A stretch of 64,000 nucleotides of DNA from an uncultured Thermodesulfobacteriota bacterium (GTDB lineage: Bacteria > Desulfobacterota > Anaeroferrophillalia > Anaeroferrophillales > Tharpellaceae), in the NCBI GenBank assembly GCA_964457755.1, contig CAYWGC010000002.1, forward strand, positions 80,621 through 144,620. Reading direction: 5' to 3'. Shown in pieces: positions 27,810 through 59,860 of this stretch. Positions within the stretch are counted from its first letter, which is position 1. Each line of letters begins with the position of its first letter. The notes beneath the pieces are model-generated. The model did not search any database, was not told where the DNA came from, and worked only from the letters and a program-made list of their open reading frames with translations. A program made the position numbers and the translations under genes.

Positions 27810-28565
27810 TTACGCATTGATTTTTGGTCGTAGGCTGTTCCGGTAGTTCTTGGCCTTTTCATTCCTGCTGTTGATAATCTTTTCCAGTCTGGCAAGGGTG
27901 TTTTGTTGTTTTATCTTGCCCTCTTTCTCTTCGAAATAGTTTATTTCATCATCAATCAATTCAATTGCGCGATCAAAAGGAAAAGGGTCGTGATCAGTAT
28001 GGCTTAAAGGAGGTTTTTTGTGCGAAACCTCTTTGATAAGTTTTATGGTTTCGGCGTCTATCTCTTTACTAGTATTAATCAGAGAAGGTGGATCACTTTT
28101 TTTGATAAATGTCAGGGCTGCACTCAGGGCTTCTGGGTAGTCGTCAGAAATATGGCATTTAAAGGGGATGAAATTGAAAAATTGGCCTATTTTAATGCTT
28201 AACTTTAGGGATGGGTTGAGACCATAATAGATTGCGGCTAACATCTGGTCTCGTTTTTTCATTTTGTCTATAACATAGCGTCGAGTCTCTAGAGATACTT
28301 TTTTCGTAATCCCAGAATAGTTGAAAATGTGAATGTAGGGTCTTTTCTGAAAATATTTCTCAATGATTTTAGCTGTAAAATCAAAAGCTTGTATGGCGTT
28401 ATTTAAATTTGGTGTGCCAAAATTATGGGTTAAAAGAATCTGTTCTCCAATAATATCAACAGAGATTTTATAATCTCCCCCGAAACTGACTTTATGCCAT
28501 TCCGGTTTGTTGAGGATAGGTAGTTTGGTGACGGGGCAGATATATGTATCGATGGGTAAACTCAT
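27810..28565 (-). CDS. Hypothetical protein (AT-rich, K/N-rich), no recognisable domain
   Basis: Long ORF whose stop overlaps the upstream acetyltransferase gene. GC is visibly lower than its surroundings. Confidence 0.4.
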   Translation of the reverse strand: MSLPIDTYICPVTKLPILNKPEWHKVSFGGDYKISVDIIGEQILLTHNFGTPNLNNAIQAFDFTAKIIEKYFQKRPYIHIFNYSGITKKVSLETRRYVIDKMKKRDQMLAAIYYGLNPSLKLSIKIGQFFNFIPFKCHISDDYPEALSAALTFIKKSDPPSLINTSKEIDAETIKLIKEVSHKKPPLSHTDHDPFPFDRAIELIDDEINYFEEKEGKIKQQNTLARLEKIINSRNEKAKNYRNSLRPKINA

Positions 28566-29182
28566 AGATGAAGATTTTCTTCTCTGTCAGATATCAGGTT
28601 GTGATTGATAAATTCTTCAATATTTGGTGTTTCAATCAGGTGTAGTTGTTCTCTGATTTTATCTATAGGCCAGTTCCACCAGGCAATTCTGAGGAGCGAT
28701 TCAATCTCCTCTTGAGAGAAACGAAAAGCGATTCTCAGAGCCGGGTTGCCGCCGACAATCTCATAATCTTCAACATCTTTTGCAACCACACTGGCTGCTG
28801 CAATTACGGCTCCATTGCCAATTCTTACACCTGAGAGGATGACCGCCCCTCGAGCAATCCAGACATCATTGCCGATTTCAATATTACCTTTGCCAGTTGG
28901 GTGCTCCCGGTTTTTAGGGAAATTTTCAAGCAGGCGGCCAAAAGGGTAGGTGCTGATCCAGTCACTGCGGTGATTACCGTCAACCAAAAGATGAACATCA
29001 TCAGCGATCGAACAGAATTTACCGATACGCACCCCGTATTTTTGCGACCATCGGTGAATCTTGGGTTTGCCGTAGCTGTAGGCCCCGATTTCGATGTTGG
29101 TCTCTTCTATCAGGTCGCAGGTAAAAGGGTTTTTCTTTTTATCCTTACCCTTGCTGGAGAGTAATTTCTTAATAAAGTTCAT
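28562..29182 (-). CDS. Hexapeptide-repeat xenobiotic O-acetyltransferase (CatB/Vat family: chloramphenicol/streptogramin A acetyltransferase-like)
   Basis: …YSYGKPKI……IGKFCSIADDV… and the left-handed beta-helix repeats (…IGNDVWIARGAVILSGVRIGNGAVIAAASVV…GGNPA…) are characteristic of Vat/CatB enzymes. Confidence 0.85.
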   Translation of the reverse strand: MNFIKKLLSSKGKDKKKNPFTCDLIEETNIEIGAYSYGKPKIHRWSQKYGVRIGKFCSIADDVHLLVDGNHRSDWISTYPFGRLLENFPKNREHPTGKGNIEIGNDVWIARGAVILSGVRIGNGAVIAAASVVAKDVEDYEIVGGNPALRIAFRFSQEEIESLLRIAWWNWPIDKIREQLHLIETPNIEEFINHNLISDREENLHL

Positions 29183-29282
29183 TGTCGATGGTTAGATGAA
29201 AGGGCAGAGGGTAAAAGAGGTATAACGAGTGGCAGTTTATACGGTGTGGTGGTCTTTAAAGTCAAGTTTTTCTTTGTTTTTT

Positions 29283-29360
29283 AACCACGGATTACACGGA
29301 TAACACGAATACCCAAAAGAGTCTTGGTTTTATCCGTGCCAATCCGTGTGATCCGTGGTT
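29283..29360. repeat. 78-bp nested palindromic element (three CACGRAT units facing three ATCCGTG units; perfect 10-bp outer arms AACCACGGAT/ATCCGTGGTT)
   Basis: Read directly. It lies between the FAD-oxidase stop and the acetyltransferase start, at the edge of the low-GC islet. Confidence 0.7.
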
Positions 29361-29391
29361 TTGAAATTTGTTTGGGCTATGTATGATTAGC

Positions 29392-30999
29392 TCAGGGAAT
29401 AAAAACATTGCCGCGGTTGATCAAAAAATCAGGATCGATGGCAGCTTTGCACGCTTTTAACTGCTCGATTGCAGCTTGGTTATAGAGGGTGAGGAAATCT
29501 TTACGTTTGCGTTTACCGGTGCCATGTTCGCCCGAATAGACACCGCCCAAATCTACCGCTTTGCTAATGAAAAGGTCGTAGAGCTCGGCGGCTCGTTTTA
29601 ATTTTTCTTGTTCGGGGAGGAGCGTGAAGTGGAGATGGCAGTCGCCAAAATGGCCAAAAGATAGATAGTCTATACCTTCACTTTTGAGCAGGGCGTGAAT
29701 ATAATCAAGGAATTTGGCGAAATGCTCAGGTGGGACGACGGTGTCGGTCATGATTGTGTAGGTGCCGTGTTTTTGGATTACTTCAAGAGCGTTGGCTGGT
29801 ATTGAGTGGCGAGACTCCATGAAAATCCTGCGTTTTTGATCGCTGTCTAAGGGAAGCACGGCTTCGGGGTCAATTCCGCAGTCAGCCGCCAGGAGACGGT
29901 TGAACCAGAATTCAATTTGCTCCTCGGGGTTTTCGTTACCGATTGGGATTTGCAGGTAAATGGCGACCTGATTGTCACCGTAAAAGAGGCGCTCTTTGTG
30001 ATCCATGTAGCTTAATGAATTGACTCCGAAATACTCAAAAGCGCTTAAAGTACCAAAATTTCCATTAAGTTCACGGTCGAGGAACTGATAAAAAGCAATG
30101 GCCTGTTTTTCATCAGGGAGTGAAAAAAAGAGGTCAAGATAGGCTTTGGGCCGCCGGGATAGTTTTAAGGTGCTGCCGGTAACCAGGCCAAAGAGACCTT
30201 CACTGCCGATAAACATATCGATCAAATCTATTTTACCGTCCGGTGAAGAAAAGGGGCCGCTGGCATTCTTAATCTCTGGTCGGGGGTAAGTCGGTACTGG
30301 CCAAACTCTTTCATGGTCACCACTGTTTAGGATGAATTTCCCTTTGTCAGATATATATTGTCCGCGCACAGCGCTAACTTTCAAGCCGTCGGGCATGAGA
30401 ATGTCAAGTCCCTCAACCCAGTCTCTGGTGGCACCGATTTCACCTGGAGTGAAGCCGGAAGCGTTACAGGCGATGGCTCCTCCGACCCAGGCGTCACCGC
30501 GGCTGGTAGGGTCGACCGGGTAGTAGAGGGTTTTGCTGGTCTCTTCAAGAATCATTTCACGCAACTCTTCAAGGATAATATTGACCGGACTGGTTACCAA
30601 AAGTTTATTCTGATCTATGGAAACCTTGGGTTTATCAAGTTTTGCGGTCGAAAGGACGATGCCGCCTTCAGCAGTTGCGCTGCCAGTTAGATTAGAGCGC
30701 CCACCGGAGAGTGTTATTGGAATCTTCGCCGCCCGGCCAGCCCTCAGGATTATGGCTGCCTGCAGTTCGTTCTCCGGCCGGCAGAGGGCTTCAGCCTGGG
30801 CCGGCAGGTTAGAGCTGTCAGCGGCAAAGCCAGCAATAATCTCGGGATCCAGAACTATCCTTAAAGAGAATTTTTCGTCTAGAAATTCAGCAATTTCCAA
30901 AAGATTTTCTACCCCTTGATGGGTGCTGCAAAAAATATCAATCTCTTGGTATTCAGAATCGCTCAAAACTTTCGTCAGGGGGATGATGTTGGTGCTCAT
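29392..30999 (-). CDS. FAD-linked oxidase (PCMH-type FAD-binding domain; D-lactate dehydrogenase/glycolate oxidase GlcD-like) with an N-terminal extension
   Basis: FAD-binding PCMH region (…GGRSNLTGSA…GGIVL…) and a C-terminal FAD-oxidase domain; 535 aa. Confidence 0.75.
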   Translation of the reverse strand: MSTNIIPLTKVLSDSEYQEIDIFCSTHQGVENLLEIAEFLDEKFSLRIVLDPEIIAGFAADSSNLPAQAEALCRPENELQAAIILRAGRAAKIPITLSGGRSNLTGSATAEGGIVLSTAKLDKPKVSIDQNKLLVTSPVNIILEELREMILEETSKTLYYPVDPTSRGDAWVGGAIACNASGFTPGEIGATRDWVEGLDILMPDGLKVSAVRGQYISDKGKFILNSGDHERVWPVPTYPRPEIKNASGPFSSPDGKIDLIDMFIGSEGLFGLVTGSTLKLSRRPKAYLDLFFSLPDEKQAIAFYQFLDRELNGNFGTLSAFEYFGVNSLSYMDHKERLFYGDNQVAIYLQIPIGNENPEEQIEFWFNRLLAADCGIDPEAVLPLDSDQKRRIFMESRHSIPANALEVIQKHGTYTIMTDTVVPPEHFAKFLDYIHALLKSEGIDYLSFGHFGDCHLHFTLLPEQEKLKRAAELYDLFISKAVDLGGVYSGEHGTGKRKRKDFLTLYNQAAIEQLKACKAAIDPDFLINRGNVFIP

Positions 31000-31018
31000 A
31001 TGCTTTCCTCTCCAGGTT

Positions 31019-32293
31019 TTATGAAAGTTGCAGAATTAGTAGCGGCCCATCTGGAACTACGGCCCAGCGGGCTTGGGGGCCATGTTTTTGCAGTAATTCC
31101 GCTATCGCTTTCTCTAAAGATTTAACTGGTTTCATGTGATATCTCTCAATCTCGTTCAAACTTAAGCCGTCACTGTAGAGCCAGATCGGATGGTCAAGCA
31201 TTATCTGGTAGGTCTCTTGGGCGCACCACTGATCGGGAATAAAAAATTCCCGATCCAAAAGACGTTTTATAAAATTTTTTGGGTTGTCGACCAGATTTAG
31301 AATTTCGATATATTCAGCGCTCCCGGCACCTTCGCTGCAAGCGCTGGCAATAACTATTTCACCGCCCTTTTTAACAACCGGTGCAGCTCCGGTAATGCCC
31401 TTTACAGATTGGTAGAGGTTGCAGTCGAGCGGGGCTCCGGAATTGGTCGTGACGATGAAATCCAGTGGGGCATCAATCTTTTGGCTGCAGAAGGGTGCCA
31501 GAAAACGACAACCTTCCAGATGAGCTTTGATCGGATCACCGGCAAAAACCCGGGTGATCTCTTTTTTAGGGTTGAGGGTTACATTGACAACAAAATCGGC
31601 GCCGACTTTGGTCATAATAGTGATCCCTGATTCATGGAAAGGATTTCCTTCAAGAGCTCCGTAAACCGTCATGGGGTGAGAAATCATCTCTGGGCCATGC
31701 ATGTATTCAAGGGTCTCTATTGAGGCAATGCCGGGTAAAATAGATTTGCGACCGCCGGAGAAACCCGCCCACATGTGGGGTTCGATAAAACCGGTTAGTA
31801 TCTTTAGGTCGGCTGCTATATAGTGGCGATTGATCAAAGCCGCTACTCCGTCATTAATCTCTCCGACCAGAATCATATCCTCTTTTTTTTTAGAAAAGTG
31901 ATTAATTATTTGGTAGTTTTTTGCAATCTCCTCTCCTACCAGTGAGATAAGTTCATCTCCTTCATTAGGGCGATGGCTGCCAGTGGCGATAAGAATAGTG
32001 ATCTCTTCTCTTTTAATACCGGCTTTTTCAATCTCGGCAAGCAGGGGTGGGAGGATGATCCGGTTGGGCACCGGCCGTGTAATGTCACTGATAACTATAC
32101 AGGCGCTCTGTCGGCCTTTGGCGATGTCTGATAAGGGTTTTGCGGCAAACGGGTTTCGCAGGGCATCCAGGATTGCTTTATCCGGGTTTGCGACGGCCGG
32201 TACATCTTGGGGCCGTAATATTCCTTGAAATCCAGGGCTTTTCGGTATTTCAAGTGGCAAACCGTCCAAGCCGTAGCTTAGTGTAACTTTCAT
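31019..32293 (-). CDS. larA: Lactate racemase-like protein (LarA family / DUF2088, nickel-pincer cofactor enzyme)
   Basis: ~424 aa and N-terminal composition typical of LarA-family proteins. Adjacent to an FAD-linked lactate-dehydrogenase-like gene. Confidence 0.65.
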   Translation of the reverse strand: MKVTLSYGLDGLPLEIPKSPGFQGILRPQDVPAVANPDKAILDALRNPFAAKPLSDIAKGRQSACIVISDITRPVPNRIILPPLLAEIEKAGIKREEITILIATGSHRPNEGDELISLVGEEIAKNYQIINHFSKKKEDMILVGEINDGVAALINRHYIAADLKILTGFIEPHMWAGFSGGRKSILPGIASIETLEYMHGPEMISHPMTVYGALEGNPFHESGITIMTKVGADFVVNVTLNPKKEITRVFAGDPIKAHLEGCRFLAPFCSQKIDAPLDFIVTTNSGAPLDCNLYQSVKGITGAAPVVKKGGEIVIASACSEGAGSAEYIEILNLVDNPKNFIKRLLDREFFIPDQWCAQETYQIMLDHPIWLYSDGLSLNEIERYHMKPVKSLEKAIAELLQKHGPQARWAVVPDGPLLILQLS

Positions 32294-51152: not shown

Positions 51153-52196
51153 ATGAGCAAAAATCAGAGAGTAGTCTTAGGTTTTAGTGGCGGGGTTGAT
51201 AGTGCAGCGGCCGCTATTTTACTGCAGCGCCAAGGATACCAAGTAGTTCCGGTCGTCCTTGATATGGGTGGGGCAGATACTTCATTTCTGTTGCAGAGGG
51301 CTGCAAAGATGGCAAAGCATCTTGGGTTAGATTTGCTGGTTGAGTCGGCAGCCGATACTTTTGCCCAGGAAGTGATTGAATATCTGCTTTTTGCCTATAC
51401 TCATGCGCAAACCCCGAATCCCTGTATTCGCTGTAATGCTCGGGTTAAATTTGCCCGGTTGGCGGCGGTGGCCGACCGTCTAGGAATTGAAAAAATGGCT
51501 ACCGGGCACTATTTTAAAAAACTTTCCGGAGTTTCAGACAGCCCGGAAATTTCCTACCATAAAGCTTATGACAAGCGTAAAAATCAGAGTTATTTTCTCT
51601 TTGCAGTGCCGGAATTGTTATTGCGGCGCACTCTTTTTCCATTGGGTGGAATGAGTAAGAGTGAGGCCCTGATTTTGGCAGATGCAGCGGGTTATGAACT
51701 TGATAATTATCGTGAGAGCCAGGAGCTCTGTTTTCTCAACGGCGAAAAATATCAAGAGTATCTGGCCCGGCGGGGAGTGATGGGTGGTCACGGTGAGATT
51801 GTCAATTGTCAGGGGCGTGTAATGGGTAAGCATAACGGTCTGCAAAACTACACGATTGGCCAACGCCGCGGTATGGGGATTGCGCATCCTGAACCCCTCT
51901 ATGTTCTGAAACTTGATTATCCACATAACCGTTTACTGGTTGGTGAGCGGGATGAGGCCTATGGTTGCAATCTAAAAGTGGATAAAATCAACTGGCTGAT
52001 TGAACCACCATCTCAACCTCTTAATATTGAGTGCCAAATTCGTTATCGCCACCAACCAGCCCCGGCTCTTCTGACTCCGCTTTCCGATGGCCGGTTCGAG
52101 ATTGAATTCGAGTCTCCTCAGTTTGCCATAACTCCGGGCCAAGGAGCTGCTTTTTATAATGGAGAGCAGCTGTTAGGCGGTGGTATTATCATATGA
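51153..52196 (+). CDS. mnmA: tRNA-specific 2-thiouridylase
   Basis: PP-loop SGGxDS (…GFSGGVDSAAAA…), catalytic Cys residues, C-terminal beta-barrel. Confidence 0.93.
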   Translation: MSKNQRVVLGFSGGVDSAAAAILLQRQGYQVVPVVLDMGGADTSFLLQRAAKMAKHLGLDLLVESAADTFAQEVIEYLLFAYTHAQTPNPCIRCNARVKFARLAAVADRLGIEKMATGHYFKKLSGVSDSPEISYHKAYDKRKNQSYFLFAVPELLLRRTLFPLGGMSKSEALILADAAGYELDNYRESQELCFLNGEKYQEYLARRGVMGGHGEIVNCQGRVMGKHNGLQNYTIGQRRGMGIAHPEPLYVLKLDYPHNRLLVGERDEAYGCNLKVDKINWLIEPPSQPLNIECQIRYRHQPAPALLTPLSDGRFEIEFESPQFAITPGQGAAFYNGEQLLGGGIII

Positions 52197-52219
52197 GTCG
52201 TGATTATATGGAGGTTGAG

Positions 52220-54340
52220 ATGAAGAAAATAATCACTTCGGTTTTATGGATCATAATTACTCTCCTTTGTTATAGTGAAGCCAACGCTTTCATCGTTGAT
52301 CATCAATGTACGGATAGTAGCAAAATTCCTGTTGCATGGTTGCAGGCAGCCAGAAACAATCTGCGCATGGGCTATTCTCATACATCTCATGGCAGTCAGT
52401 TGATCAGCGGCATAAACGCATTTCGTGGTAGTGAAGGTTCGAGATATTATTTCACCAGTTCCGGTTGGGGGGCCGTAAGCGGAGTTTTTATAAATGATTA
52501 CTGGGCGAATGATGGGGCCGGAGACCTTGGTCATAATGGTGACTTGAGTTGGGTGACTGCAACTGAAACCATGCTTGATAATCCTGCCAATGACCGGAAT
52601 GTGGTGATGTGGTCATGGTGTGGCGGCGTTAGCGATAACACTGCAAGCGGTATCGATATATACTTAAATGCCATGAACCGCCTTGAACAACTCTATCCTC
52701 AGGTTTCTTTCATCTACATGACCGGTCATCTGGATGGCGGTGGAGTGGTGGGTAATTTGCATCAGATGAATGAGCGCATTCGCAATTACTGCCAAGATCA
52801 CAATAAGATACTTTTTGATTTTGCCGACATTGAAAGTTATGATCCCGATGGTGCAATCAACTATATGCAACTTAATGCCAATGATAATTGTGATTATAAC
52901 AGTAATGGCAACAATCGAAATTGGGCCCGTGAATGGCTTTCTGCTAATCCGGCCAGCACCTTGGCAGTGGAGGCCGAGAGTTGTGGGGGCTGCGCTCATT
53001 CACAATATTTAAACTGCGTTCTTAAAGGCCGGGCCTTTTGGTGGATGATGGCCCGTATTGCCGGTTGGGAGCCTGGCATTCCAGATCCTCCGGTTACGCT
53101 CTCAAAACTCTATTACCCGCATGTGGTCAGTGGGGATGGAGTTTGGGGAACCGAGATATGCGTACTCAATCCCAATAGTAATCAGACAGTTAATGGGATT
53201 TTTAAGGCCTTCGCTAATGACGGCCGAGCGGTTTCTGACAATCTAATTTTAAGCCTTGCTCCGCAGGCTCGTCGAGTAATAAACATCGCCACGCAATTTA
53301 GAGACCCTCAAAGTATTGGCTATATTGTTCTAGAAAGTGATTCCGAGAATCTTACCGGATATATGAAATTTTTTATCAACGGAGTCTGTCGGGTTGCCAT
53401 ACCCGTGGTCTCTCAGCTTAATTCAGGAGCTGTACCAATCTCTCATATTGCTTCAGATCAGTACTGGTGGACCGGTATAAGTTTGCTTAATACGACACTA
53501 TCGGAAAAAATATTGTCCATATATTTCAATAATGGAGTGCTGAAAAACGTAACACTCAGTGCTGGAGAACATCGGGCTTTTTCGATAAAAAGTCTGTTTG
53601 ATAACACTCCTCAAGCAGATATCAATTCTGCGATAATAGAGGGCATGACCGGAGTCATTGGTTTGGAACTTTTCAGCAATTCTAACCAGTTAAGCGGCAT
53701 ATTGTTAAGTGATAAGAGCTCTACTGAAATCTGTTACCCTCATGTCGTCGATGACCTGCAGTGGTGGACGGGGATTGTGGCATACAATCCATTTGATATG
53801 GAATCTATTTTGACAATTTCACCCTTTACTGGAGACGGTTCACCATTACCGCTTAAGACGGCAACACTTTTACCATTTTCAAAGTACTGGGGGTCTGTGA
53901 GTTCGCTTGCTTTAGCGTCGGAAACTGCCTGGTTTAAGGTTGAAAGCACCACTGGGATTTCCGGCTTTGAGCTTTTTGGCAGCAATGATAGTCAGCGTCT
54001 GGCCGGCTACTCCGGGGTTGCGATCAGTGGAACTGACGGCGTTTTGGCTAATCTTGAAGAAGATGGTTGGTCAGGTATCGCATTGGTCAATATCAGAGCA
54101 ACCTCGGTAACCGTTCAACTTAAAGCATATGATGATTCTGGCGCTCTTATTGCGACTAAATCAATAGATCTCAAAGCTTACGAGAAAAAAGTGGAAGTTG
54201 CCTCCACATTTTTCAGCACCAGTATCGCCGGCGCCACTTACATTACCTACACCGTGGAAGGTGATGGTGAATTGGTTGCTTTCCAGCTCAACAATAGCAG
54301 TGACAACACCATGCTTGATGCCTTACCAGCTATCAGATAG
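52220..54340 (+). CDS. Large secreted hypothetical protein: ~240-aa N-terminal domain of unknown function followed by several ~100-aa repeats with the conserved motif …[YN]PH[VI]…W(W)TG[IV]…N…
   Basis: Signal peptide (MKKIITSVLWIIITLLCYSEANA) after a GGAGG RBS. Internal repeats seen directly (YPHVVSGDGVWGTEICVLNP… / YPHVVDDLQWWTGIVAYNP… / YWWTGISLLN…). It is paralogous to the ORF at 59135. Confidence 0.5.
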   Translation: MKKIITSVLWIIITLLCYSEANAFIVDHQCTDSSKIPVAWLQAARNNLRMGYSHTSHGSQLISGINAFRGSEGSRYYFTSSGWGAVSGVFINDYWANDGAGDLGHNGDLSWVTATETMLDNPANDRNVVMWSWCGGVSDNTASGIDIYLNAMNRLEQLYPQVSFIYMTGHLDGGGVVGNLHQMNERIRNYCQDHNKILFDFADIESYDPDGAINYMQLNANDNCDYNSNGNNRNWAREWLSANPASTLAVEAESCGGCAHSQYLNCVLKGRAFWWMMARIAGWEPGIPDPPVTLSKLYYPHVVSGDGVWGTEICVLNPNSNQTVNGIFKAFANDGRAVSDNLILSLAPQARRVINIATQFRDPQSIGYIVLESDSENLTGYMKFFINGVCRVAIPVVSQLNSGAVPISHIASDQYWWTGISLLNTTLSEKILSIYFNNGVLKNVTLSAGEHRAFSIKSLFDNTPQADINSAIIEGMTGVIGLELFSNSNQLSGILLSDKSSTEICYPHVVDDLQWWTGIVAYNPFDMESILTISPFTGDGSPLPLKTATLLPFSKYWGSVSSLALASETAWFKVESTTGISGFELFGSNDSQRLAGYSGVAISGTDGVLANLEEDGWSGIALVNIRATSVTVQLKAYDDSGALIATKSIDLKAYEKKVEVASTFFSTSIAGATYITYTVEGDGELVAFQLNNSSDNTMLDALPAIR

Positions 54341-54493
54341 TGCTATGAGAAAACCCACACAAGGGAATTTGCTTAATTGTTTAATTTACTGGGTGCAATA
54401 AAAAATAATTAAAAAGAATATTTTCATTGCTTTAGAATGTTAAAAGAATTTATATGAATATAAATGAATAACAGATGGCGGGGAGGTTTCCAG

Positions 54494-54754
54494 ATGTCAA
54501 AAGTAGTGACCCTTAGACTTTCAGATGAAGAATATAATCTCTATGCAAAAGCCGCTAAAGTTGTCAAACGGCCGATATCCAACCTGATTAACTACCTGGC
54601 ACAACAACAGCTTGAAGAGAGTATTTTTATTGACCAGATAGAGATGGATGAGATTATTGGGAACCCAACTTTGCTTGAATCCCTGAAACAGGGTTCCATC
54701 GATGCAGAACTCAATCAAGGATCGTTTGTTGATGTATATGATATTCGAGACTAA
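54494..54754 (+). CDS. Type II antitoxin (ribbon-helix-helix/RelB-DinJ-like)
   Basis: 86-aa protein, N-terminal …VVTLRLSDEEYNLYAKAAK… RHH-like. Its stop overlaps the downstream RelE/ParE-like toxin. GGGGAGG RBS. Confidence 0.6.
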   Translation: MSKVVTLRLSDEEYNLYAKAAKVVKRPISNLINYLAQQQLEESIFIDQIEMDEIIGNPTLLESLKQGSIDAELNQGSFVDVYDIRD

Positions 54755-55004
54755 AACTTTTTTGAAGTCGCTTGAGCAAGTTTTTGGTGGACAACAGGGA
54801 AAAATTAAAAAGAAACTCCGGGGATATGTTTACCAGCAACTAAAAATCTCACCGGCGTTTGGCTCTAATATTAAAAAGCTCCGAGATTGGGATCCTCCCA
54901 CTTGGAGATACAGAATAAGCTCTTACCGATTCTTTTATCAAATTGATGAAAATCAGAAAATTGTCTCTATGATCCTGGCTGAACATCGTGGTAAGGCTTA
55001 TTAA
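54732..55004 (+). CDS. RelE/ParE-family type II toxin (mRNA interferase-like)
   Basis: ~90 aa; C-terminal …YRISSYRFFYQIDENQKIVSMILAEHRGKAY is typical of RelE/ParE. Its start overlaps the antitoxin's last codons. Confidence 0.7.
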   Translation: MYMIFETKTFLKSLEQVFGGQQGKIKKKLRGYVYQQLKISPAFGSNIKKLRDWDPPTWRYRISSYRFFYQIDENQKIVSMILAEHRGKAY

Positions 55005-55069: not shown

Positions 55070-55231
55070 ATGACTAATGGTAAAAACAACGGAGCGAACC
55101 TTGGCTTCGAAAACAAATTATGGGGAATGACCGACAAAATACGCGGTCATATGGACGCTGACGAATTGCGTGTTCTCAGTGTTGAGAAGTTGGTTGACGG
55201 ATTAAACCTTAATGGGGTTCACAATGGCTAG
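55070..55231 (+). pseudogene. hsdM: 5' remnant of a type I restriction-modification methyltransferase gene (hsdM N-terminal ~30 codons, then divergent sequence and a stop)
   Basis: MTNGKNNGANLGFENKLWGMTDKIRGHMDA… matches the widely conserved HsdM N-terminus (…LGFE.KLW.AADKLRG.MDA.EYK…). Homology is lost after ~aa 30, and the ORF stops at codon 54, overlapping the ATPase start. Confidence 0.6.
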
Positions 55232-56219
55232 AGCTGACTTGCTAACCGCTCTCGTCAAATTTGGAATGGCTGACGACAAGATCCGGTTCCAAAAAGTTGT
55301 CGAGTCGATCATCGCAGAAGAGCGAGCGAAGAAACACACAGTGTTGGCCGAGAAGCTGGAAGATCTGTTGCGCTCGATTCCTGTAGCGAAACCAGTTTCT
55401 AACGGAACCGCCATATTGGATCATCGGGTCAGTAATTTCGTCCGAGAAGTGATACCAGAGCGGAAACTCGACGATCTTATATTGCCATCGGAAGTACTTG
55501 AGATAGTGCGGGAAGTTGTTCAAGAGTACCATCGAATTGACCTGCTTCGATCATACAATTTGGAACCTCGCAATCGAGTACTGCTCATCGGTCCACCAGG
55601 AAACGGTAAGACGTCTCTGGCTGAAGCCATTGCTGAATCGTTGATGGTACCGTTACTTGTCGTTCGGTACGATGGTGTGGTGGGCACCTACCTTGGTGAA
55701 ACTGCCGTTCGTTTGCGAAGGTTGATGGAATATGCCGCCACACGGAAATGTGTTCTGTTCCTTGATGAGTTTGAGACGTTAGGCAAGGAGCGGGGCGACA
55801 CTCACGAAACCGGGGAAATAAAACGAGTCGTCAGTTCCTTGCTTCTACAGATTGACTCGCTGCCCAGCCACGTGGTCGTGGTTGGAGCCACCAATCACGC
55901 AGAGCTTCTCGACCGGGCTGTCTGGCGACGGTTTCAAGTTCGTATGGTTTTGCCCGAACCGACTCGTGCGAGACTGGCCGATTGGTTTGCAAGGTTTGAA
56001 CGTAGGATCAATGTGCCACTGGGATATGCACCAGAGACATTAGCGAAGAAGCTCCAAGGTGTGAATTTTGCCGAAGCTGAGGAATTCGGGGCGAGTGTGT
56101 TTCGCAAGTACGTACTCGAACAACCTGATTCAGACATGAAATCGATTGTTAATCGTACGTTGAAGACCTGGTCAGCACGTTCGGCCAAAACGAAACAGCA
56201 AAACGGGGGCAAAGACTAA
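55212..56219 (+). CDS. Classical AAA-family ATPase (single AAA domain, short N-terminal helical region); first gene of a two-gene ATPase-peptidase operon
   Basis: Walker A LLIGPPGNGKTSLAEAIA, Walker B VLFLDEFETL, sensor-1 …VVVGATNHAELLD…, Arg-finger region …AVWRRFQ…. Alternative start at ATG 55224. Its stop overlaps the next gene's start (TAATG). Confidence 0.85.
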   Translation: MGFTMARADLLTALVKFGMADDKIRFQKVVESIIAEERAKKHTVLAEKLEDLLRSIPVAKPVSNGTAILDHRVSNFVREVIPERKLDDLILPSEVLEIVREVVQEYHRIDLLRSYNLEPRNRVLLIGPPGNGKTSLAEAIAESLMVPLLVVRYDGVVGTYLGETAVRLRRLMEYAATRKCVLFLDEFETLGKERGDTHETGEIKRVVSSLLLQIDSLPSHVVVVGATNHAELLDRAVWRRFQVRMVLPEPTRARLADWFARFERRINVPLGYAPETLAKKLQGVNFAEAEEFGASVFRKYVLEQPDSDMKSIVNRTLKTWSARSAKTKQQNGGKD

Positions 56220-58798
56220 TGCCGGTTCGACCATTATTGCTATTTCCCGCTCCCGAACTTGCAGAAAAGGGTAATTTGCCCCAAGGTTTTAGACGGACTC
56301 ATAAACCTTCGCATGGCAGGCAAGGAGAGAGGGTGTCTCCCATCTTCGCTCAACTTCAGGCGGCATTCGATGCGCGGCAAGTCGAACTACAGAAAACGGC
56401 TGCCGGTGTAGAGCCAGAACAGGTTTTGGTGATTGAAACCATCGGTAACATCGAGGATTTTGCCAATGCTGTTCGTCGGATTGAAGGGCTTGAATGGATG
56501 GGGGAAATTGAAGTTGAGGAGATTACACCGGATGAGGATTTCTATGACGAGAAAAAACCGGAAAAAGAATTAAGTGGTCGTCTCTATCTGGTCATGACAA
56601 ATCAGCAGGCATTGCGAGAACTGCTTTCATTGTGGAATCGCTATAAAAATGATGAGAACATGACCTTTGATCGTGGCTTTGCCAAGTTTCGCGACGTGTT
56701 TCTCTGCCTTAATGATATTCGGCGTTGGGATGTGCAAGACCGCCTCGCTGAAACCGGTGTGTTGGATGTTTGGCGTGAGGATATGGAGCATTTTCCCGAT
56801 CAGCCGGTTCGAGGTGAAATCGAACTGTGGTTTCGCAATTCTGAAAGCAAGCGGCAAGACGCGGAGCTTCAGCTCACTTTATTGATTGAGGTGCTTGGTG
56901 GAAGAGTTTTGAGCCAATGTGTTCTTAGCGATATTGCCTATCACTCGATCTTGGCCGAATTGCCGAGGCAAGTTGCACAACAGGTGATGGATCACTCGAG
57001 TGTAGAGTTGGTCAAATGCGACAGCGTCATGTTCTTCAGGCCAGTAGGCCAAATGGCGACGGGCAAGTCACCGGTTGAAGGTGACCTGACGGATTTTGAA
57101 GTTTCTGAGGATCAAGAACGGCCATCCGGTGATCCGGTTGTTGCTATTTTTGACGGGCTTCCTTTGACCAATCACAGGTTGTTAGCAGATCGTTTAGTAA
57201 TCGATGATCCAGACGATTTCGCCTCGTATTACACTGTGGCCGATCGTGTGCATGGGACTGCAATGAGTTCGCTTGTCGTTCAAGGTGATTTAAGCAACGG
57301 GGAAAACCCGTTGGCTCGGCCTGTCTATGTTCGCCCGATCATGAAACCCATCGATTGGCATCGGTCTCCTCGTCCCGAGTATATCCCAGCAGATGTGCTT
57401 GTTGTTGATCTTATTCACCGCGCGGTTCGTCGCATGTACGAGGGTGATGGTGCGGGTGATGCGGCGGCGCCTGGCATTCGAATCATCAACCTGTCGATAG
57501 GCGACTCGAGCCGTCAATTTACGCAAGCCATGAGCCCCCTCGCACGACTCTTGGATTGGTTGAGTGTAAAATACAAGGTGCTCTTTGTCATCAGTGTGGG
57601 AAACTACCCTGATGACATTGACACCGGGATTTCGGTAGATGACTTTAATGATCTTGGCGATCAAGATCTCGAAGAGCTCAGTGTCAAGAAGCTATACGAG
57701 AACGCACGCCATCGGAGCCTACTCTCTCCCGCCGAGAGCATCAACGGCATCACGGTAGGTGCGCTGCACCGTGATGATTCTACTGTGAGCCATAGCGGAG
57801 ACACCATCAACCTGTTTGAAAATGCTCTTCCAAGTCCGGTGTCTGCATTTGGCAGCGGATACCGCCGCTCCGTAAAACCTGATTTAATCTGCCATGGTGG
57901 CCGAGTTTTTTACAATCGACCTATAGGCACGAATGCCAACGCCATTCTCAAATCCCGCCATCTTCGAATAGCGCCGGGCAACGAAGTTGCGTCACCGAGT
58001 AGCCATCCTGGCGACTTAAACAAGACTGCGTATTGTTGCGGAACCAGCAATTCGGCTGCGCTTATAAGTCGAGCGTTGTCTATTTGTCACGACTCGTTGT
58101 TGGATATATTCAATGAGCAAGCGCCTGACATTGAATTCACCACGTATATTGCCCCCTTGCTCAAGGCGATGATTGTACATGGATGTTCGTGGGATGATAT
58201 TGGGGAACGCCTTCAACAAATACTGCAAACTGCTGACAATGGTCGCCAAATCCGCAATTGGATAAGCAGATGGCTTGGGTATGGGGTTCCAGATTATTCG
58301 AGGGTTTTAGATTGTACGGAACAACGGACATCAATACTCGGGTTTGGGCAACTCAATGATGGAGAGGCCCATGTGTTTAGTCTGCCACTTCCGCCGTCAT
58401 TGGCCGCTCGACGTGACAGGCGTAGACTAACCGTGACATTGGCGTATTTGTCGCAAGTCGCCTCAAGCACCCAACGATATCGAATTGCCAACCTATGGTT
58501 CGAAATCGAAGGCGTTGCTTTGGCTTCCGGCAGACAAGATGCCGAGTGGCGTACAGTTAGACGTGGAACCGTTCAACATGAAGTATTTGAAGACGATAGA
58601 GCGGTCCCATTCAGCGACGGTGATACTTTGACAATTAAAGTCAACTGTCGAAAGGACGCACGTCGAATGGAAGAGCCGACTACTTATGGATTGGCAGTAT
58701 CACTCGAAGTAGCGGAGGGCATTGATATACCCATTTATAACGAGGTACGTACTCGAATAGCAACTGCTATTGAGATTCGAGCTAGAGAAGGGCTGTAG
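56219..58798 (+). CDS. Intracellular S8-family serine peptidase (subtilase) with an unrecognised ~300-aa N-terminal domain; second gene of the ATPase-peptidase operon
   Basis: Complete subtilase catalytic elements in order: Asp (…VVAIFDGLPLTNH…), His (…VHGTAMSSLVV…), oxyanion Asn (…IINLSIGDS…), Ser (…YCCGTSNSAALISRA…). No signal peptide; 859 aa. Confidence 0.85.
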   Translation: MPVRPLLLFPAPELAEKGNLPQGFRRTHKPSHGRQGERVSPIFAQLQAAFDARQVELQKTAAGVEPEQVLVIETIGNIEDFANAVRRIEGLEWMGEIEVEEITPDEDFYDEKKPEKELSGRLYLVMTNQQALRELLSLWNRYKNDENMTFDRGFAKFRDVFLCLNDIRRWDVQDRLAETGVLDVWREDMEHFPDQPVRGEIELWFRNSESKRQDAELQLTLLIEVLGGRVLSQCVLSDIAYHSILAELPRQVAQQVMDHSSVELVKCDSVMFFRPVGQMATGKSPVEGDLTDFEVSEDQERPSGDPVVAIFDGLPLTNHRLLADRLVIDDPDDFASYYTVADRVHGTAMSSLVVQGDLSNGENPLARPVYVRPIMKPIDWHRSPRPEYIPADVLVVDLIHRAVRRMYEGDGAGDAAAPGIRIINLSIGDSSRQFTQAMSPLARLLDWLSVKYKVLFVISVGNYPDDIDTGISVDDFNDLGDQDLEELSVKKLYENARHRSLLSPAESINGITVGALHRDDSTVSHSGDTINLFENALPSPVSAFGSGYRRSVKPDLICHGGRVFYNRPIGTNANAILKSRHLRIAPGNEVASPSSHPGDLNKTAYCCGTSNSAALISRALSICHDSLLDIFNEQAPDIEFTTYIAPLLKAMIVHGCSWDDIGERLQQILQTADNGRQIRNWISRWLGYGVPDYSRVLDCTEQRTSILGFGQLNDGEAHVFSLPLPPSLAARRDRRRLTVTLAYLSQVASSTQRYRIANLWFEIEGVALASGRQDAEWRTVRRGTVQHEVFEDDRAVPFSDGDTLTIKVNCRKDARRMEEPTTYGLAVSLEVAEGIDIPIYNEVRTRIATAIEIRAREGL

Positions 58799-59134: not shown

Positions 59135-59860
59135 ATGGGTGTTTGGGCAAATACTGGTTCTGCCCGAACTGGAACAGTGACGATAGGCGGTATTTTAAGT
59201 GATACATTTAAGGTGTCACAGGAAGCTGCACCTGGAACTTATAGCTATGAATATTTTTCACCATATTACTCTTCTTCAGAAGTTGACTGGACTGGTGTTG
59301 CCTTAAGTAATGCTAGTTATGATCATGAGGCTTCTATAGAGGTTGTAGTTCGTGGTATGAATGGAGACCTTTTAAGACAGATTTATAAAAATCTTCCAGC
59401 CAGTGGCAAAACAACTTTAGTAGTAGATGATTTAAGTTCCGGATGGTTGCATGTTAGATCAGATCAACCTTTGTCCGGCCTTGTCTTTCTAGGTCGTGGC
59501 CTGTATATGGCTGATATTCCTTTTGTTGACAATCTCGAACAAAATCTTGTTATCCCCCATATTGCTCAGGATGATGATTGGGATACGACTCTTATGATCT
59601 GTAACCCACAGACCAGCAGCGTTAATGTAAATGTAATAAATGTTAACGATCAAGGGCTAATAGTGGCTCTGAGAAACTTAACACTTGCGGCTAAAGGCAG
59701 CGGTTGTTTTCTGTTAAGTGATCTTTTTGGGTCTCAAGCTCTAACCGGTAAAATATATCTTCATGCAACTTCAGGAATATCTGCTTTTGCGCTTTATAAC
59801 AATGTGAAGAGCGGCGGCAGCTGGTTTGCCGGTATCAATGCTACACTATTAACTGATTAA
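59135..59860 (+). CDS. Repeat-domain protein fragment paralogous to the C-terminal repeats of the 52220..54340 protein; lacks a signal peptide (possibly 5'-truncated)
   Basis: …NLVIPHIAQDDDWDTTLMICNP… and …ISAFALYNN… align with …YPHVVDDLQWWTGIVAYNP… / …ISGFELFGSN… of the upstream paralogue. An in-frame stop lies at 59078. Confidence 0.45.
   Translation: MGVWANTGSARTGTVTIGGILSDTFKVSQEAAPGTYSYEYFSPYYSSSEVDWTGVALSNASYDHEASIEVVVRGMNGDLLRQIYKNLPASGKTTLVVDDLSSGWLHVRSDQPLSGLVFLGRGLYMADIPFVDNLEQNLVIPHIAQDDDWDTTLMICNPQTSSVNVNVINVNDQGLIVALRNLTLAAKGSGCFLLSDLFGSQALTGKIYLHATSGISAFALYNNVKSGGSWFAGINATLLTD

What the first reader, a model, noticed from the sequence alone, without database searches (positions are those of the whole stretch)
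56219..57130. Unassigned ~300-aa N-terminal domain of the S8 peptidase (candidate sensor/regulatory module)
Residues 1 to about 300 precede the catalytic Asp (about aa 312) and show no motif I recognise. They are charged and helical in places (…EEITPDEDFYDEKKPEKELSGRLYLVMTNQQALRELLSLWNRYKND…). In NTPase-effector conflict systems such extensions are commonly the trigger-sensing or autoinhibitory module. This domain is the most likely place for genuinely new biology in the window.
Basis: inference. Interest (0 to 1): 0.6.

Follow-up and report, generated by a model that had tools for sequence, protein, structure and literature searches.

The report
N-terminal regulatory module of IetS protease
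The unassigned first 300 residues belong to IetS, the toxic serine protease of the known IetA/IetS anti-phage (toxin-antitoxin) pair. They are predicted to fold into a conserved tail, a long helix and two small alpha/beta lobes, and the lobe next to the protease seems to sit where the inhibitory pro-piece of ordinary subtilisins sits.

Summary
Residues 1-304 of the 859-aa ORF at 56219-58798 precede the catalytic Asp312 and match nothing in Pfam, NCBIfam or PDB sequences.

The gene is not an orphan. It is IetS (PADLOC PDLC04233, E=0, full length). It is translationally coupled (TAATG overlap) to the AAA+ ATPase IetA at 55212-56219. Together they form the known IetAS/Gao_Iet defence and toxin-antitoxin pair, whose mechanism is still unpublished.

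The N-module is real, folded and strongly conserved. A profile finds 1622 cluster representatives, and in the 150 best listed hits it lies at the N-terminus of ~860-aa proteins or fragments of them. It occurs in at least 15 phyla, and 78 of 80 genomic loci have IetA directly upstream.

There is no I9 sequence match and no signal peptide. The module is subfamily-specific: the founding pTiC58 IetS does not share it by sequence.

Best reading: a composite autoinhibitory pro-region coupled to IetA. A sensor role is unproven. Interest is moderate.

The parts
55212..56219 (+). ietA: 335-aa classic-clade AAA+ ATPase, the antitoxin partner. Its stop overlaps the ietS start by 1 nt (TAATG).
   Evidence: PADLOC IetA PDLC04232 2.5e-149. 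Pfam AAA 2.1e-29 at residues 123-248. NCBIfam IteA 1.8e-65, below the equivalog cut-off. The sequence shows Walker A GPPGNGKT, pore-loop YLGE and Walker B FLDEF, motifs conserved in 77 of 77 partner genes.
56219..58798 (+). ietS: 859-aa cytoplasmic S8 serine protease, the toxin/effector, with an intact triad D312/H345/S610 and oxyanion N462.
56219..56260 (+). Conserved N-terminal tail, residues 1-14 (MPVRPLLLFPAPEL; family consensus M-x-[ED]-[RK]-P-L-L-h-F-P-x-P).
   Evidence: M1, P5 and L7 are near-invariant in 102 representatives that are mostly 38-47% identical to the query. pLDDT is below 50 in the isolated N-domain model but averages 81 with short strands in the full-length model. The tail is therefore predicted to pack on the rest of the protein.
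56261..56311 (+). Variable, basic, disordered segment, residues 15-31.
   Evidence: pLDDT below 50 for residues 15-24. One of the two most variable parts of the N-region (2.73 bits; only the 276-304 linker is higher). pI 10.9 for residues 1-30.
56312..56392 (+). Long alpha-helix, residues 32-58.
   Evidence: DSSP helix H32-58 in both models.
56393..56728 (+). Lobe A, residues 59-170: ferredoxin-like beta-alpha-beta-beta-alpha-beta lobe with an acidic surface loop (residues 104-117) that is an insertion hot-spot.
   Evidence: Secondary-structure order E68-75, H81-85, E92-102, E118-127, H129-144, E164-169, with pLDDT above 90 in the N-only model. It is the best-conserved part of the N-region (entropy 1.99, against 2.01 for the catalytic domain). 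Invariant V71, F161 and W170. Inserts after residue 112 in 8 of 102 representatives, for example P0362.
56729..56806 (+). Connector helices, residues 171-196, carrying invariant R175 and near-invariant D174 and W185.
   Evidence: Helices H172-176 and H181-191. Conservation.
56807..57043 (+). Lobe B, residues 197-275: second ferredoxin-like lobe, directly before the protease domain. It is prodomain-like (I9-like) in fold and in inferred position.
57038..57052 (+). Near-invariant R-P-x-G-Q motif, residues 274-278, at the exit of lobe B. Candidate pseudo-substrate or processing site (inference).
   Evidence: R274 in 93, P275 in 91, G277 in 88 and Q278 in 101 of 102 representatives.
57044..57130 (+). 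Variable acidic, Pro-rich linker, residues 276-304, joining lobe B to the catalytic domain.
   Evidence: Highest entropy in the protein (3.17 bits). Disordered in the isolated model (residues 284-299 below 50). Partly ordered in the full-length model (291-300 mean 79, 301-310 mean 94).
57131..58198 (+). S8 (subtilisin-like) catalytic domain, residues 305-660.
58199..58795 (+). C-terminal helical and beta-sandwich region, residues 661-859, also unassigned by Pfam.

Best explanation
Residues 1-304 are the subfamily-specific N-terminal regulatory pro-region of IetS, the cytoplasmic subtilisin-like toxin/effector of an IetA-IetS (Gao_Iet) anti-phage, toxin-antitoxin pair.

Shown here:
- It is a folded, conserved module. 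It consists of a conserved N-tail, a disordered basic stretch, a long helix and two unrelated ferredoxin-like lobes.
- A near-invariant RPxGQ motif and a variable linker of about 25 aa connect it to the catalytic domain.

Inferred:
- The protease-proximal lobe B works like a subtilase propeptide. It would act as an intramolecular chaperone and inhibitor docked on the catalytic domain. The RPxGQ segment or the N-tail would occupy or shield the substrate cleft, so the protease is made latent inside the cell.
- The extra parts (tail, helix, lobe A) couple this latch to IetA. IetA has an intact polypeptide-threading pore loop, and published work shows its ATPase activity is needed to neutralise IetS.
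- When phage infection disables or diverts IetA, or perturbs the N-module, the latch opens, possibly by autoprocessing. IetS then degrades cell proteins and aborts the infection.
For: Identity of the system:
- PADLOC IetS E=0 over residues 1-854 and IetA 2.5e-149.
- TAATG start/stop overlap.
- 78 of 80 related genomic loci have IetA directly upstream, mostly with overlapping stop and start.
- Close homologues lie in defence islands, next to Kiwa and Cas9, next to BREX/WYL genes, or inside type I R-M operons.
- Literature: ietA is the antitoxin, ietS the toxin, protease activity is required for defence, and the mechanism is unknown (PMC13069673). The system acts by abortive infection and is triggered by expression of a phage protein (bioRxiv 10.1101/2022.08.27.505566).

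Fold:
- AF2 N-only model has pLDDT 84.5 and pTM 0.78, with two beta-alpha-beta-beta-alpha-beta lobes.

Position, from one rigid superposition of the full-length model (pTM 0.84), all:
- Pro-subtilisin E 3whi_B aligns 309 residues, against about 235 for mature thermitase and proteinase K.
- PCSK9 pro+catalytic 5vla_A aligns 319, against 244 for the catalytic chain alone.
- Pro-kumamolisin aligns 301, against 251-254 for mature sedolisins.
- PfSUB1 with its prodomain aligns 310, against 268 for the PvSUB1 catalytic domain.

Context-dependent ordering: the N-tail (pLDDT below 50 rising to 81) and the distal linker (below 50 rising to 79-94) become ordered only in the full-length model.

Conservation: the N-module is as conserved as the catalytic domain. 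The RPxGQ motif and the N-tail motif are near-invariant.

IetA: pore-loop [YF]LGE, Walker A and Walker B are intact in 77 of 77 partners. Its nearest NCBIfam relatives are the Cdc48, PAN and FtsH unfoldases.
Against: - No sequence-level match to Inhibitor_I9 in this protein or in 67 relatives.
- AF2 may carry a learned bias toward pro-subtilisin arrangements.
- Lobe A has low confidence in the full-length model (pLDDT 42-62).
- No IetA-IetS complex could be predicted. Whether IetA touches the N-module at all is untested.
- Autoprocessing is unknown.
Confidence: 0.5

Rival explanations
1. Trigger sensor. The N-module, especially lobe A with its acidic insertion-prone loop, directly binds a phage protein or a small molecule made during infection, and allosterically switches the protease on. 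The two lobes would act like tandem ACT-type ligand-binding regulators.
For: - The module is the part that differs between IetS subfamilies. The founding pTiC58 IetS, phrog_3964 and several PADLOC IetS models align only from the catalytic domain onward, as expected for a specificity module.
- There is an insertion hot-spot after residue 112.
- Expression of a single phage protein triggers IetAS toxicity.
Against: - Within the subfamily the module is as conserved as the catalytic domain, over representatives mostly 38-47% identical to the query and at least 15 phyla. This is unlike arms-race sensor surfaces.
- Foldseek TM-scores are 0.15-0.3 with rmsd above 11 Å for almost all hits, so only the generic lobe fold matches.
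- No ACT Pfam hit.
- No ligand-site residues could be identified.
- Published data do not say which protein senses the trigger.
Confidence: 0.25
2. IetA handle only. The N-module is mainly the docking platform and threading tag for the IetA AAA+ ring. The conserved N-tail followed by a disordered basic stretch would be the initiation site. IetA would continuously unfold or remodel IetS to keep it harmless, and the N-module would have no intrinsic inhibitory function.
For: - A conserved terminal motif followed by a disordered segment of about 17 aa is the usual entry site for AAA+ unfoldases.
- IetA has intact pore-loop-1 [YF]LGE and Walker motifs in 77 of 77 partners, and it resembles Cdc48, PAN and FtsH.
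- An active IetA is needed to tolerate IetS (PMC13069673).
- The two genes are strictly and tightly linked.
Against: - In the full-length model the N-tail is ordered against the protein body, not free.
- IetA is 35% identical between this system and pTiC58 along its length, yet the two IetS N-regions are unrelated by sequence. This argues against a conserved IetA/N-module interface.
- No complex model could be made.
Confidence: 0.2
3. Ordinary pro-region. The stretch is just a long, divergent I9 propeptide of a secreted housekeeping subtilase, with no link to conflict systems.
For: Prodomain-like fold hits and the pro-enzyme alignment lengths. One noise-level Pfam hit to Fervidolysin_NPro-like (E 0.08) in 1 of 67 relatives.
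Against: - The N-terminus (MPVRPLLLFPAPELAEKG...) has no hydrophobic signal peptide (sequence).
- The region is 300 aa, not about 80 aa.
- No I9 sequence match.
- The gene is obligately coupled to an AAA+ gene.
- PADLOC assigns it to IetS at E=0.
- Close homologues lie in defence islands and R-M operons.
Confidence: 0.03

Closest known systems
IetS of the IetAS / Gao_Iet anti-phage system (PADLOC models PDLC04233/PDLC04234; the clade Pfam names after Y4kK)
   Same: The PADLOC profile matches end to end, including residues 1-304 (E=0). The partner AAA+ gene IetA lies upstream with overlapping stop and start. The catalytic triad is intact. Close homologues lie in defence islands. Plasmid-borne members in Rhizobium, Bradyrhizobium, Mycolicibacterium and other genera share the N-module.
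   Different: Nothing substantial. It is a chromosomal copy next to a RelE/ParE-type TA pair. It lacks the helicase or R-M partners seen in many relatives.
Founding IetS/IetA of Agrobacterium plasmid pTiC58 (Yamamoto et al. 2009, J Bacteriol 191:4656, cited in PMC8562856 and PMC13069673) and the NCBIfam IteS_antiphage equivalog
   Same: The gene pair and order are the same. IetA is 35% identical. The S8 catalytic and C-terminal parts are homologous. The N-terminal region before the catalytic Asp is of similar length, about 285 aa.
   Different: The pTiC58 N-region is not detectably related. BLASTP aligns only residues 302-713 at 21% identity. The N-module HMM gives E 0.14 with a negative score. 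The NCBIfam IteS model matches only residues 163-578 at 76 bits, against a 900-bit cut-off. This protein is therefore a different subfamily, and only the lobe B region is shared.
Subtilase propeptide / peptidase inhibitor I9 (pro-subtilisin E, PCSK9 prodomain, Tk-SP ProN, POIA1)
   Different: No sequence similarity to I9. No signal peptide. About 200 extra residues lie upstream. A 25-aa variable linker sits between the lobe and the catalytic domain. Processing is unknown. Regulation involves an AAA+ partner rather than secretion.
N-terminal extension of intracellular subtilisins (ISPs) with the LIPY/F motif (PMC6220982)
   Same: Both are cytoplasmic subtilases that need self-inhibition. Both have a short conserved hydrophobic-hydrophobic-Pro motif within the first 10 residues (IetS P-L-L-h-F-P). 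In the model the tail is ordered only in the context of the whole enzyme.
   Different: The fourth motif position is not aromatic in IetS. The ISP extension is about 18 aa and lies directly before the catalytic domain, whereas the IetS tail is about 300 residues away in sequence. Contact with the active site was not verifiable here.
Tandem ACT-domain regulatory modules (AHAS small subunit, aspartate-kinase regulatory subunit, SerB2 N-terminus)
   Same: Two consecutive ferredoxin-like lobes. These are the best Foldseek matches to the whole N-module (E 1e-4 to 1e-2).
   Different: TM-scores are no higher than 0.3 and rmsd values are large, so only the generic lobe topology is shared. No ACT sequence signal. 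The two lobes are not detectably related to each other (hhalign).

Membership tests
IetAS / Gao_Iet defence system (IetS component) | S8 subtilisin-like protease with an intact catalytic triad | tested here: met
   [not shown]
IetAS / Gao_Iet defence system (IetS component) | Match to curated IetS profiles | tested here: met
   PADLOC PDLC04233 E=0, 1104 bits, residues 1-854 of 859. Residues 1-304 alone give 4.5e-114.
IetAS / Gao_Iet defence system (IetS component) | Adjacent co-oriented AAA+ ATPase gene (IetA) | tested here: met
   ORF 55212-56219 is IetA at 2.5e-149. It overlaps ietS by 1 nt. The same arrangement occurs in 78 of 80 related loci.
IetAS / Gao_Iet defence system (IetS component) | Anti-phage activity, and toxicity neutralised by IetA | not testable with these tools
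   Only literature on other members is available.
NCBIfam NF042956 IteS_antiphage (equivalog) | Score at or above the curated cut-off of 900 bits | tested here: not met
   76.2 bits, residues 163-578 only. This is a related but different subfamily.
Founding pTiC58 IetS subfamily | Full-length homology, including the N-terminal region | tested here: not met
   BLASTP aligns only 302-713 at 21% identity. The N-module HMM gives E 0.14 with a negative score.
Peptidase inhibitor I9 / subtilase propeptide (Pfam PF05922) | Sequence match to the family profile | tested here: not met
   No hit at E up to 10 for residues 1-304. None in 67 relatives at E up to 1.
Peptidase inhibitor I9 / subtilase propeptide (Pfam PF05922) | Beta-alpha-beta-beta-alpha-beta fold directly preceding the S8 domain | tested here: met
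   [not shown]
Peptidase inhibitor I9 / subtilase propeptide (Pfam PF05922) | Docked on the catalytic domain at the propeptide site, with its C-terminal tail in the active-site cleft | tested here: inconclusive
   Pro-enzymes align about 40-75 more residues than mature enzymes. This is consistent with the same position, but coordinates and contacts could not be inspected.
Peptidase inhibitor I9 / subtilase propeptide (Pfam PF05922) | Autocatalytic cleavage and release or degradation during maturation | not testable with these tools
   Needs biochemistry. The invariant RPxGQ motif is only a candidate site.
ACT domain regulators | ACT sequence profile, and a ligand-binding beta-alpha-beta-beta-alpha-beta dimer interface | tested here: not met
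   No ACT Pfam hit. Foldseek TM no higher than 0.3.
ISP-type N-terminal extension (LIPY/F motif) | [LVI]-[IFLV]-P-[YFH] within the first ~10 residues, binding across the active site | tested here: inconclusive
   66 of 102 representatives have [LVI][IFLVW]P in the first 30 aa, but the fourth position is variable and not aromatic. Binding to the active site is not verifiable.
Pfam PF27210 Y4kK_2nd | Match to the family profile | not testable with these tools
   Listed as a weak precomputed hit in two homologues that are 63% identical to the query (P0187, P0203). The model is absent from the local Pfam copy.

The most novel reading that the evidence does not exclude
The N-module is a new kind of switch for a cytoplasmic subtilase. 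A prodomain-like lobe and a pseudo-substrate segment (RPxGQ or the PLLxFP tail) are held in place or continuously reset by a dedicated AAA+ unfoldase. The distal ACT-like lobe A reads an infection signal, either a phage protein or a metabolite. This would be an ATP-powered zymogen latch. IetAS would then be the first defence system in which an unfoldase guards a protease zymogen. Its recurrent insertion between hsdS and hsdR would make it a PrrC-like guard of restriction-modification.
Probability: 0.15. Interest if true: 0.75.

Novelty: new member of a known kind. Interest (0 to 1): 0.4.

Why it matters
IetAS is a widespread, experimentally validated anti-phage and toxin-antitoxin system. The paper that says so most recently (April 2026) still calls its mechanism unknown, and my searches of the held library found no mechanistic or structural study. 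The N-terminal third of the protease is the obvious place where activity must be restrained in the cytoplasm.

This analysis turns 'unassigned 300 aa' into concrete, testable elements: the N-tail, lobe A, the prodomain-like lobe B, the RPxGQ motif and the linker. It shows that the module is subfamily-specific, whereas IetA and the catalytic core are shared. It also points to a zymogen-latch model controlled by an AAA+ unfoldase.

If the model is right, it would explain how an ATPase can act as an antitoxin to a protease. It would also give truncation and point-mutant designs for kill-switch or protease-activation tools.

Tried and rejected
- Sequence searches of residues 1-304 against Pfam (E up to 10), NCBIfam and PDB chains, with a single sequence and with a profile, gave only noise: RNA_replicase_B at 0.032, adenylyl cyclase-associated protein at 0.22.
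- The afdb50 Foldseek library was not available, so I could not see which AlphaFold-database proteins share the whole two-lobe module.
- hhalign of lobe A against lobe B found no similarity, so an internal duplication is rejected.
- tblastn against 50,697 phage records found no match. PHROG phrog_3964 covers only residues 300-855.
- The exact protein is not in the contig collection, so the source organism was not identified. The closest genome hit is a KSB1 MAG at 88% identity.
- Stand-alone 'N-domain only' proteins were checked in two cases and rejected. Both are split or frameshifted IetS genes in decayed loci.
- The idea that the cassette split a single flanking gene was rejected. The flanks are paralogous repeat proteins, 28% identical over 131 aa.
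- Yamamoto 2009 (PMC2704731) is not held, and no paper mentions y4kK or y4kL.
- Promoter and terminator scans around the cassette found no more sites than the shuffled controls.
- My early assumption that the N-module is shared with the pTiC58 founder was tested and is false.


Full report
**1. What is at the coordinates**

The window holds an 859-aa ORF at 56219-58798 (+). It is preceded by a 335-aa ORF at 55212-56219 (+). The stop of the first ORF and the start of the second overlap by one base (GAC TAATG CCG).

The finding's interval, 56219-57130, is exactly residues 1-304, and the quoted peptide is residues 100-145. Pfam sees only Peptidase_S8 at residues 307-622. The catalytic residues are D312, H345, N462 and S610.

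Residues 1-304 have no match above noise in any curated resource:
- no Pfam match even at E up to 10;
- no NCBIfam match;
- no PDB sequence match with a single sequence or a profile.

The region is acidic, with pI 4.7.

**2. What the gene pair is**

PADLOC assigns the large ORF to IetS (PDLC04233, E=0, 1104 bits, residues 1-854). It assigns the upstream ORF to IetA (PDLC04232, 2.5e-149). Residues 1-304 alone score 4.5e-114 against the IetS models, so the 'unassigned' region is already part of the family definition used by defence-system finders.

NCBIfam's IteS and IteA equivalogs match only partially and far below their cut-offs (76 of 900 bits and 221 of 510 bits). This marks a different subfamily.

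The literature held here says the following:
- IetAS was first described as a serine-protease/AAA-ATPase toxin-antitoxin pair on pTiC58, and later as an anti-phage system.
- Protease activity is needed for defence, and IetA mutants cannot be cloned.
- The system acts by abortive infection and becomes toxic when a phage protein (SPbeta yosG) is expressed (bioRxiv 10.1101/2022.08.27.505566).
- A homologous pair is a validated TA module in mycoplasmas (PMC8562856).

No structural or mechanistic paper on IetS turned up in the library.

**3. Is the N-module real, and how widespread is it?**

The N-part alone finds 111 proteins at 35-91% identity. The full protein finds 2309 proteins. The best 120 are mostly ~855-865 aa (a few are N-terminally shorter, 780-810 aa) and 59-92% identical, with S8 as essentially the only Pfam domain.

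A profile restricted to the N-module (A3) finds 1622 representatives of 50%-identity clusters (838 at E below 1e-30). In all of the best 150 the module starts at or near the N-terminus, at residues ~1-315 of ~850-880-aa proteins or of fragments (one, P0362, has a 65-aa insert).

The two short 'N-only' proteins I checked in context are split or frameshifted genes in decayed loci, and several others in the alignment end in frameshift-like sequence. I therefore found no evidence that the module occurs alone or on another effector. Only the best 150 of the 1622 hits were listed, so I could not examine more distant relatives.

A scan of one genome per species confirmed 165 loci. The 80 fetched span at least 15 phyla. 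Of these, 78 have IetA directly upstream, and the other two are cut by the contig start. The gene junction is most often -1 or -8 nt.

Close homologues sit in defence contexts:
- next to Kiwa and Cas9;
- next to WYL and BREX genes;
- inside type I R-M operons.

**4. Conservation pattern**

Within the subfamily the N-module is as conserved as the catalytic domain. Over 102 representatives mostly 38-47% identical to the query (one at 56%), the column entropies are 1.99 for lobe A, 2.22 for lobe B and 2.01 for the S8 domain. Only the segment 15-31 (2.73) and the linker 276-304 (3.17) are variable.

The best-conserved positions are:
- invariant: V71, F161, W170, R175;
- near-invariant: E73, W93, F108, W139, D174, W185, E200, E202, W204, R212, Y241, H242, R274, Q278;
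- the N-terminal motif M-x-[ED]-[RK]-P-L-L-h-F-P-x-P.

Between subfamilies the picture reverses:
- The founding pTiC58 IetS (located) aligns only over residues 302-713 at 21% identity.
- The N-module HMM does not recognise pTiC58 IetS, and PADLOC models match it only from residue 208 onward, the best from 283.
- phrog_3964 likewise matches only residues 300-855 of the window protein.
- IetA, in contrast, is 35% identical to its pTiC58 counterpart over about 250 residues.
- The NCBIfam IteS and PDLC02198 models do reach back to residues 157-163 of the window protein, so the lobe B region is more widely shared than the tail, helix and lobe A.
- Plasmid-borne members in Rhizobium, Bradyrhizobium, a Rhizobium rhizogenes pTi, Mycolicibacterium and other genera carry the same N-module.

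A newer Pfam release has a family 'Y4kK_2nd' (PF27210). It is a weak precomputed hit in two homologues that are 63% identical to the query. It is absent from the local Pfam copy, and no paper mentions y4kK.

**5. Predicted structure**

With a 67-sequence alignment, AlphaFold2 gives a confident model of residues 1-304 (pLDDT 84.5, pTM 0.78):
- residues 1-24 disordered;
- a long helix, 32-58;
- lobe A: E68-75, H81-85, E92-102, E118-127, H129-144, E164-169;
- connector helices;
- lobe B: E197-203, H209-225, E229-236, E241-248, H250-258, E270-274;
- residues 284-299 disordered.

Both lobes have the ferredoxin-like beta-alpha-beta-beta-alpha-beta order. They are not detectably related to each other (hhalign).

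- ribosomal protein S6;
- ACT-type regulatory domains;
- subtilase pro-regions and I9 inhibitors: ProN-Tk-SP 8.1, pro-kumamolisin 8.0, POIA1 7.3, PCSK9 prodomain 6.7, CspB prodomain 6.2, Aspergillus alkaline protease 6.1.

Foldseek ranks tandem-ACT regulators first, but with TM no higher than 0.3. No solved structure therefore resembles the whole module.

**6. Position relative to the protease**

| Pro-form | Residues aligned | Mature or catalytic-only form | Residues aligned |
|---|---|---|---|
| Pro-subtilisin E (3whi_B) | 309 | thermitase, proteinase K | ~235 |
| PCSK9 pro+catalytic (5vla_A) | 319 | PCSK9 catalytic chain (2w2m_A) | 244 |
| Pro-kumamolisin (1t1e_A) | 301 | mature sedolisins | 251-254 |
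| PfSUB1 with prodomain (8pol_B) | 310 | PvSUB1 catalytic domain | 268 |

This is the result expected if one ferredoxin-like lobe occupies the propeptide site. By adjacency that lobe would be lobe B.

Two segments that are disordered in the isolated N-model become ordered in the full-length model:
- the N-tail, residues 1-10 (pLDDT below 50 rising to 81, with short strands);
- the distal linker (291-310, pLDDT 79-94).

The near-invariant RPxGQ motif (residues 274-278) lies three residues after the last strand of lobe B. This is about where the tail of a subtilisin propeptide enters the active site. A variable linker of about 25 aa follows, long enough to reach the start of the catalytic domain without cleavage (this reading is inference).

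**7. The partner**

IetA is a classic-clade AAA+ protein. Its nearest NCBIfam relatives are Cdc48, PAN and FtsH. In 77 of 77 partner genes it keeps Walker A (G[PA]PGNGKT), the pore-loop-1 motif [YF]LGE and Walker B DEF. These are the hallmarks of a polypeptide-threading unfoldase (established knowledge of AAA+ proteins).

Published genetics shows that an active IetA is needed to tolerate IetS. This makes an ATP-dependent restraint on the protease the most economical model.

**8. Mechanism proposed, and how sure I am**

- Near-certain: this is IetS of an IetAS system, and the N-module is a genuine, conserved, subfamily-specific domain assembly.
- Likely (about 0.8): the architecture of tail, helix and two ferredoxin-like lobes.
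- Plausible (about 0.5): lobe B acts as an uncleaved or cleavable prodomain-like chaperone and inhibitor.
- Speculative (about 0.3): the N-tail or RPxGQ acts as a pseudo-substrate, and the tail plus disordered stretch is the IetA entry site.

The sensor reading remains open, and three observations favour it:
- the module is the variable part between subfamilies;
- lobe A has an insertion hot-spot;
- the lobes have ACT-like topology.

It is not supported by any diversification within the subfamily. An ordinary secreted-subtilase pro-region is excluded. There is no signal peptide and no I9 sequence match. The region is 300 aa long, and the gene is obligately linked to an AAA+ gene.

**9. Novelty and score**

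The locus is a new member of a known kind, and defence-finder HMMs already cover the N-region. The new contribution is the structural dissection and the prodomain-like reading. A subtilase specialist would find this reasonable rather than surprising. It does make the open question 'how does an ATPase neutralise a protease toxin' directly testable.

- Interest: 0.4.
- Most novel reading not excluded: an AAA+-reset zymogen latch with an ACT-like sensing lobe. Probability about 0.15; interest about 0.75 if true.

Noticed in passing
window 54464-55004 (+): Directly upstream of ietA lies a small type II TA-like pair. It consists of a 96-aa ribbon-helix-helix protein (DUF6290 at 2e-4, RHH_5 weak) and an overlapping 100-aa ParE/RelE-like toxin (ParE_toxin at 1.5e-4, just under the Pfam cut-off). 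The 4.7-kb stretch 54.4-58.8 kb is therefore a two-module conflict islet.
   Followed up: partly
[not shown]
   Followed up: partly
related loci L007, L012-L014, L019, L020, L031, L043, L056, L090: In about 10-15 of 80 related genomes, ietA-ietS is inserted on the same strand between hsdS and hsdR of a type I R-M operon. From my own knowledge, this is the slot that the anticodon nuclease gene prrC occupies in the EcoprrI locus. It suggests a possible 'guard of restriction' role.
   Followed up: partly
related loci L018, L026, L028, L030, L032, L033, L036, L040, L042, L050, L062, L063; also L005 and L008: In 12 of 80 loci the order is a ~941-aa DNA methyltransferase, then ietA-ietS, then an SNF2-family helicase with a C-terminal nuclease-like tail. 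In Thioalkalivibrio a DEAD/ResIII helicase precedes ietA. This resembles the recently described ietHAS variant (PMC13069673). The window's copy has no helicase.
   Followed up: partly
window 52193-54340 (+) and 59135-59860 (+): The genes flanking the cassette are paralogous repeat proteins with no Pfam match. They are 28% identical over 131 aa and share a recurring motif of the type 'PH[VI]...W.T...NP'. The conflict cassette sits between them and is slightly GC-richer (0.50 against about 0.44-0.45).
   Followed up: partly
L008 (Vibrio harveyi) and L009: Decayed copies of the system. In L008 IetS is split into 263 + 592 aa, IetA is fragmented, and an upstream helicase is in three pieces. In L009 there are a truncated AAA gene and IetS fragments of 326 + 116 aa. 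Many of the short N-terminal hits look like such pseudogenes or contig-end fragments.
   Followed up: yes
L091 (pTiC58) 27874-31374: The founding IetA/IetS pair of pTiC58 shares IetA (35% identity) and the catalytic and C-terminal parts of IetS with the window's system. Its ~285-aa N-terminal region is unrelated by sequence. 'IetS' therefore covers at least two different N-modules.
   Followed up: yes
P0187, P0203 (63% identical homologues); L090: A newer Pfam release lists PF27210 'Y4kK_2nd' as a weak hit N-terminal to the S8 domain in two homologues. Pfam has evidently begun to define domains in this region, named after the NGR234 plasmid protein Y4kK. The model is not in the local Pfam copy, and no paper mentions it.
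   Followed up: partly
window 56552-56554 region (after IetS residue 112); P0362: The acidic loop of lobe A (PDEDFYDEKKPEKE) is an insertion hot-spot. Eight of 102 representatives carry inserts there, and P0362 carries about 65 extra residues.
   Followed up: no
window 55212-56219 (IetA): IetA's first ~80 residues, before the AAA core, are also unassigned by Pfam. They are conserved as far as pTiC58 IetA, where the alignment starts at residue 5.
   Followed up: no
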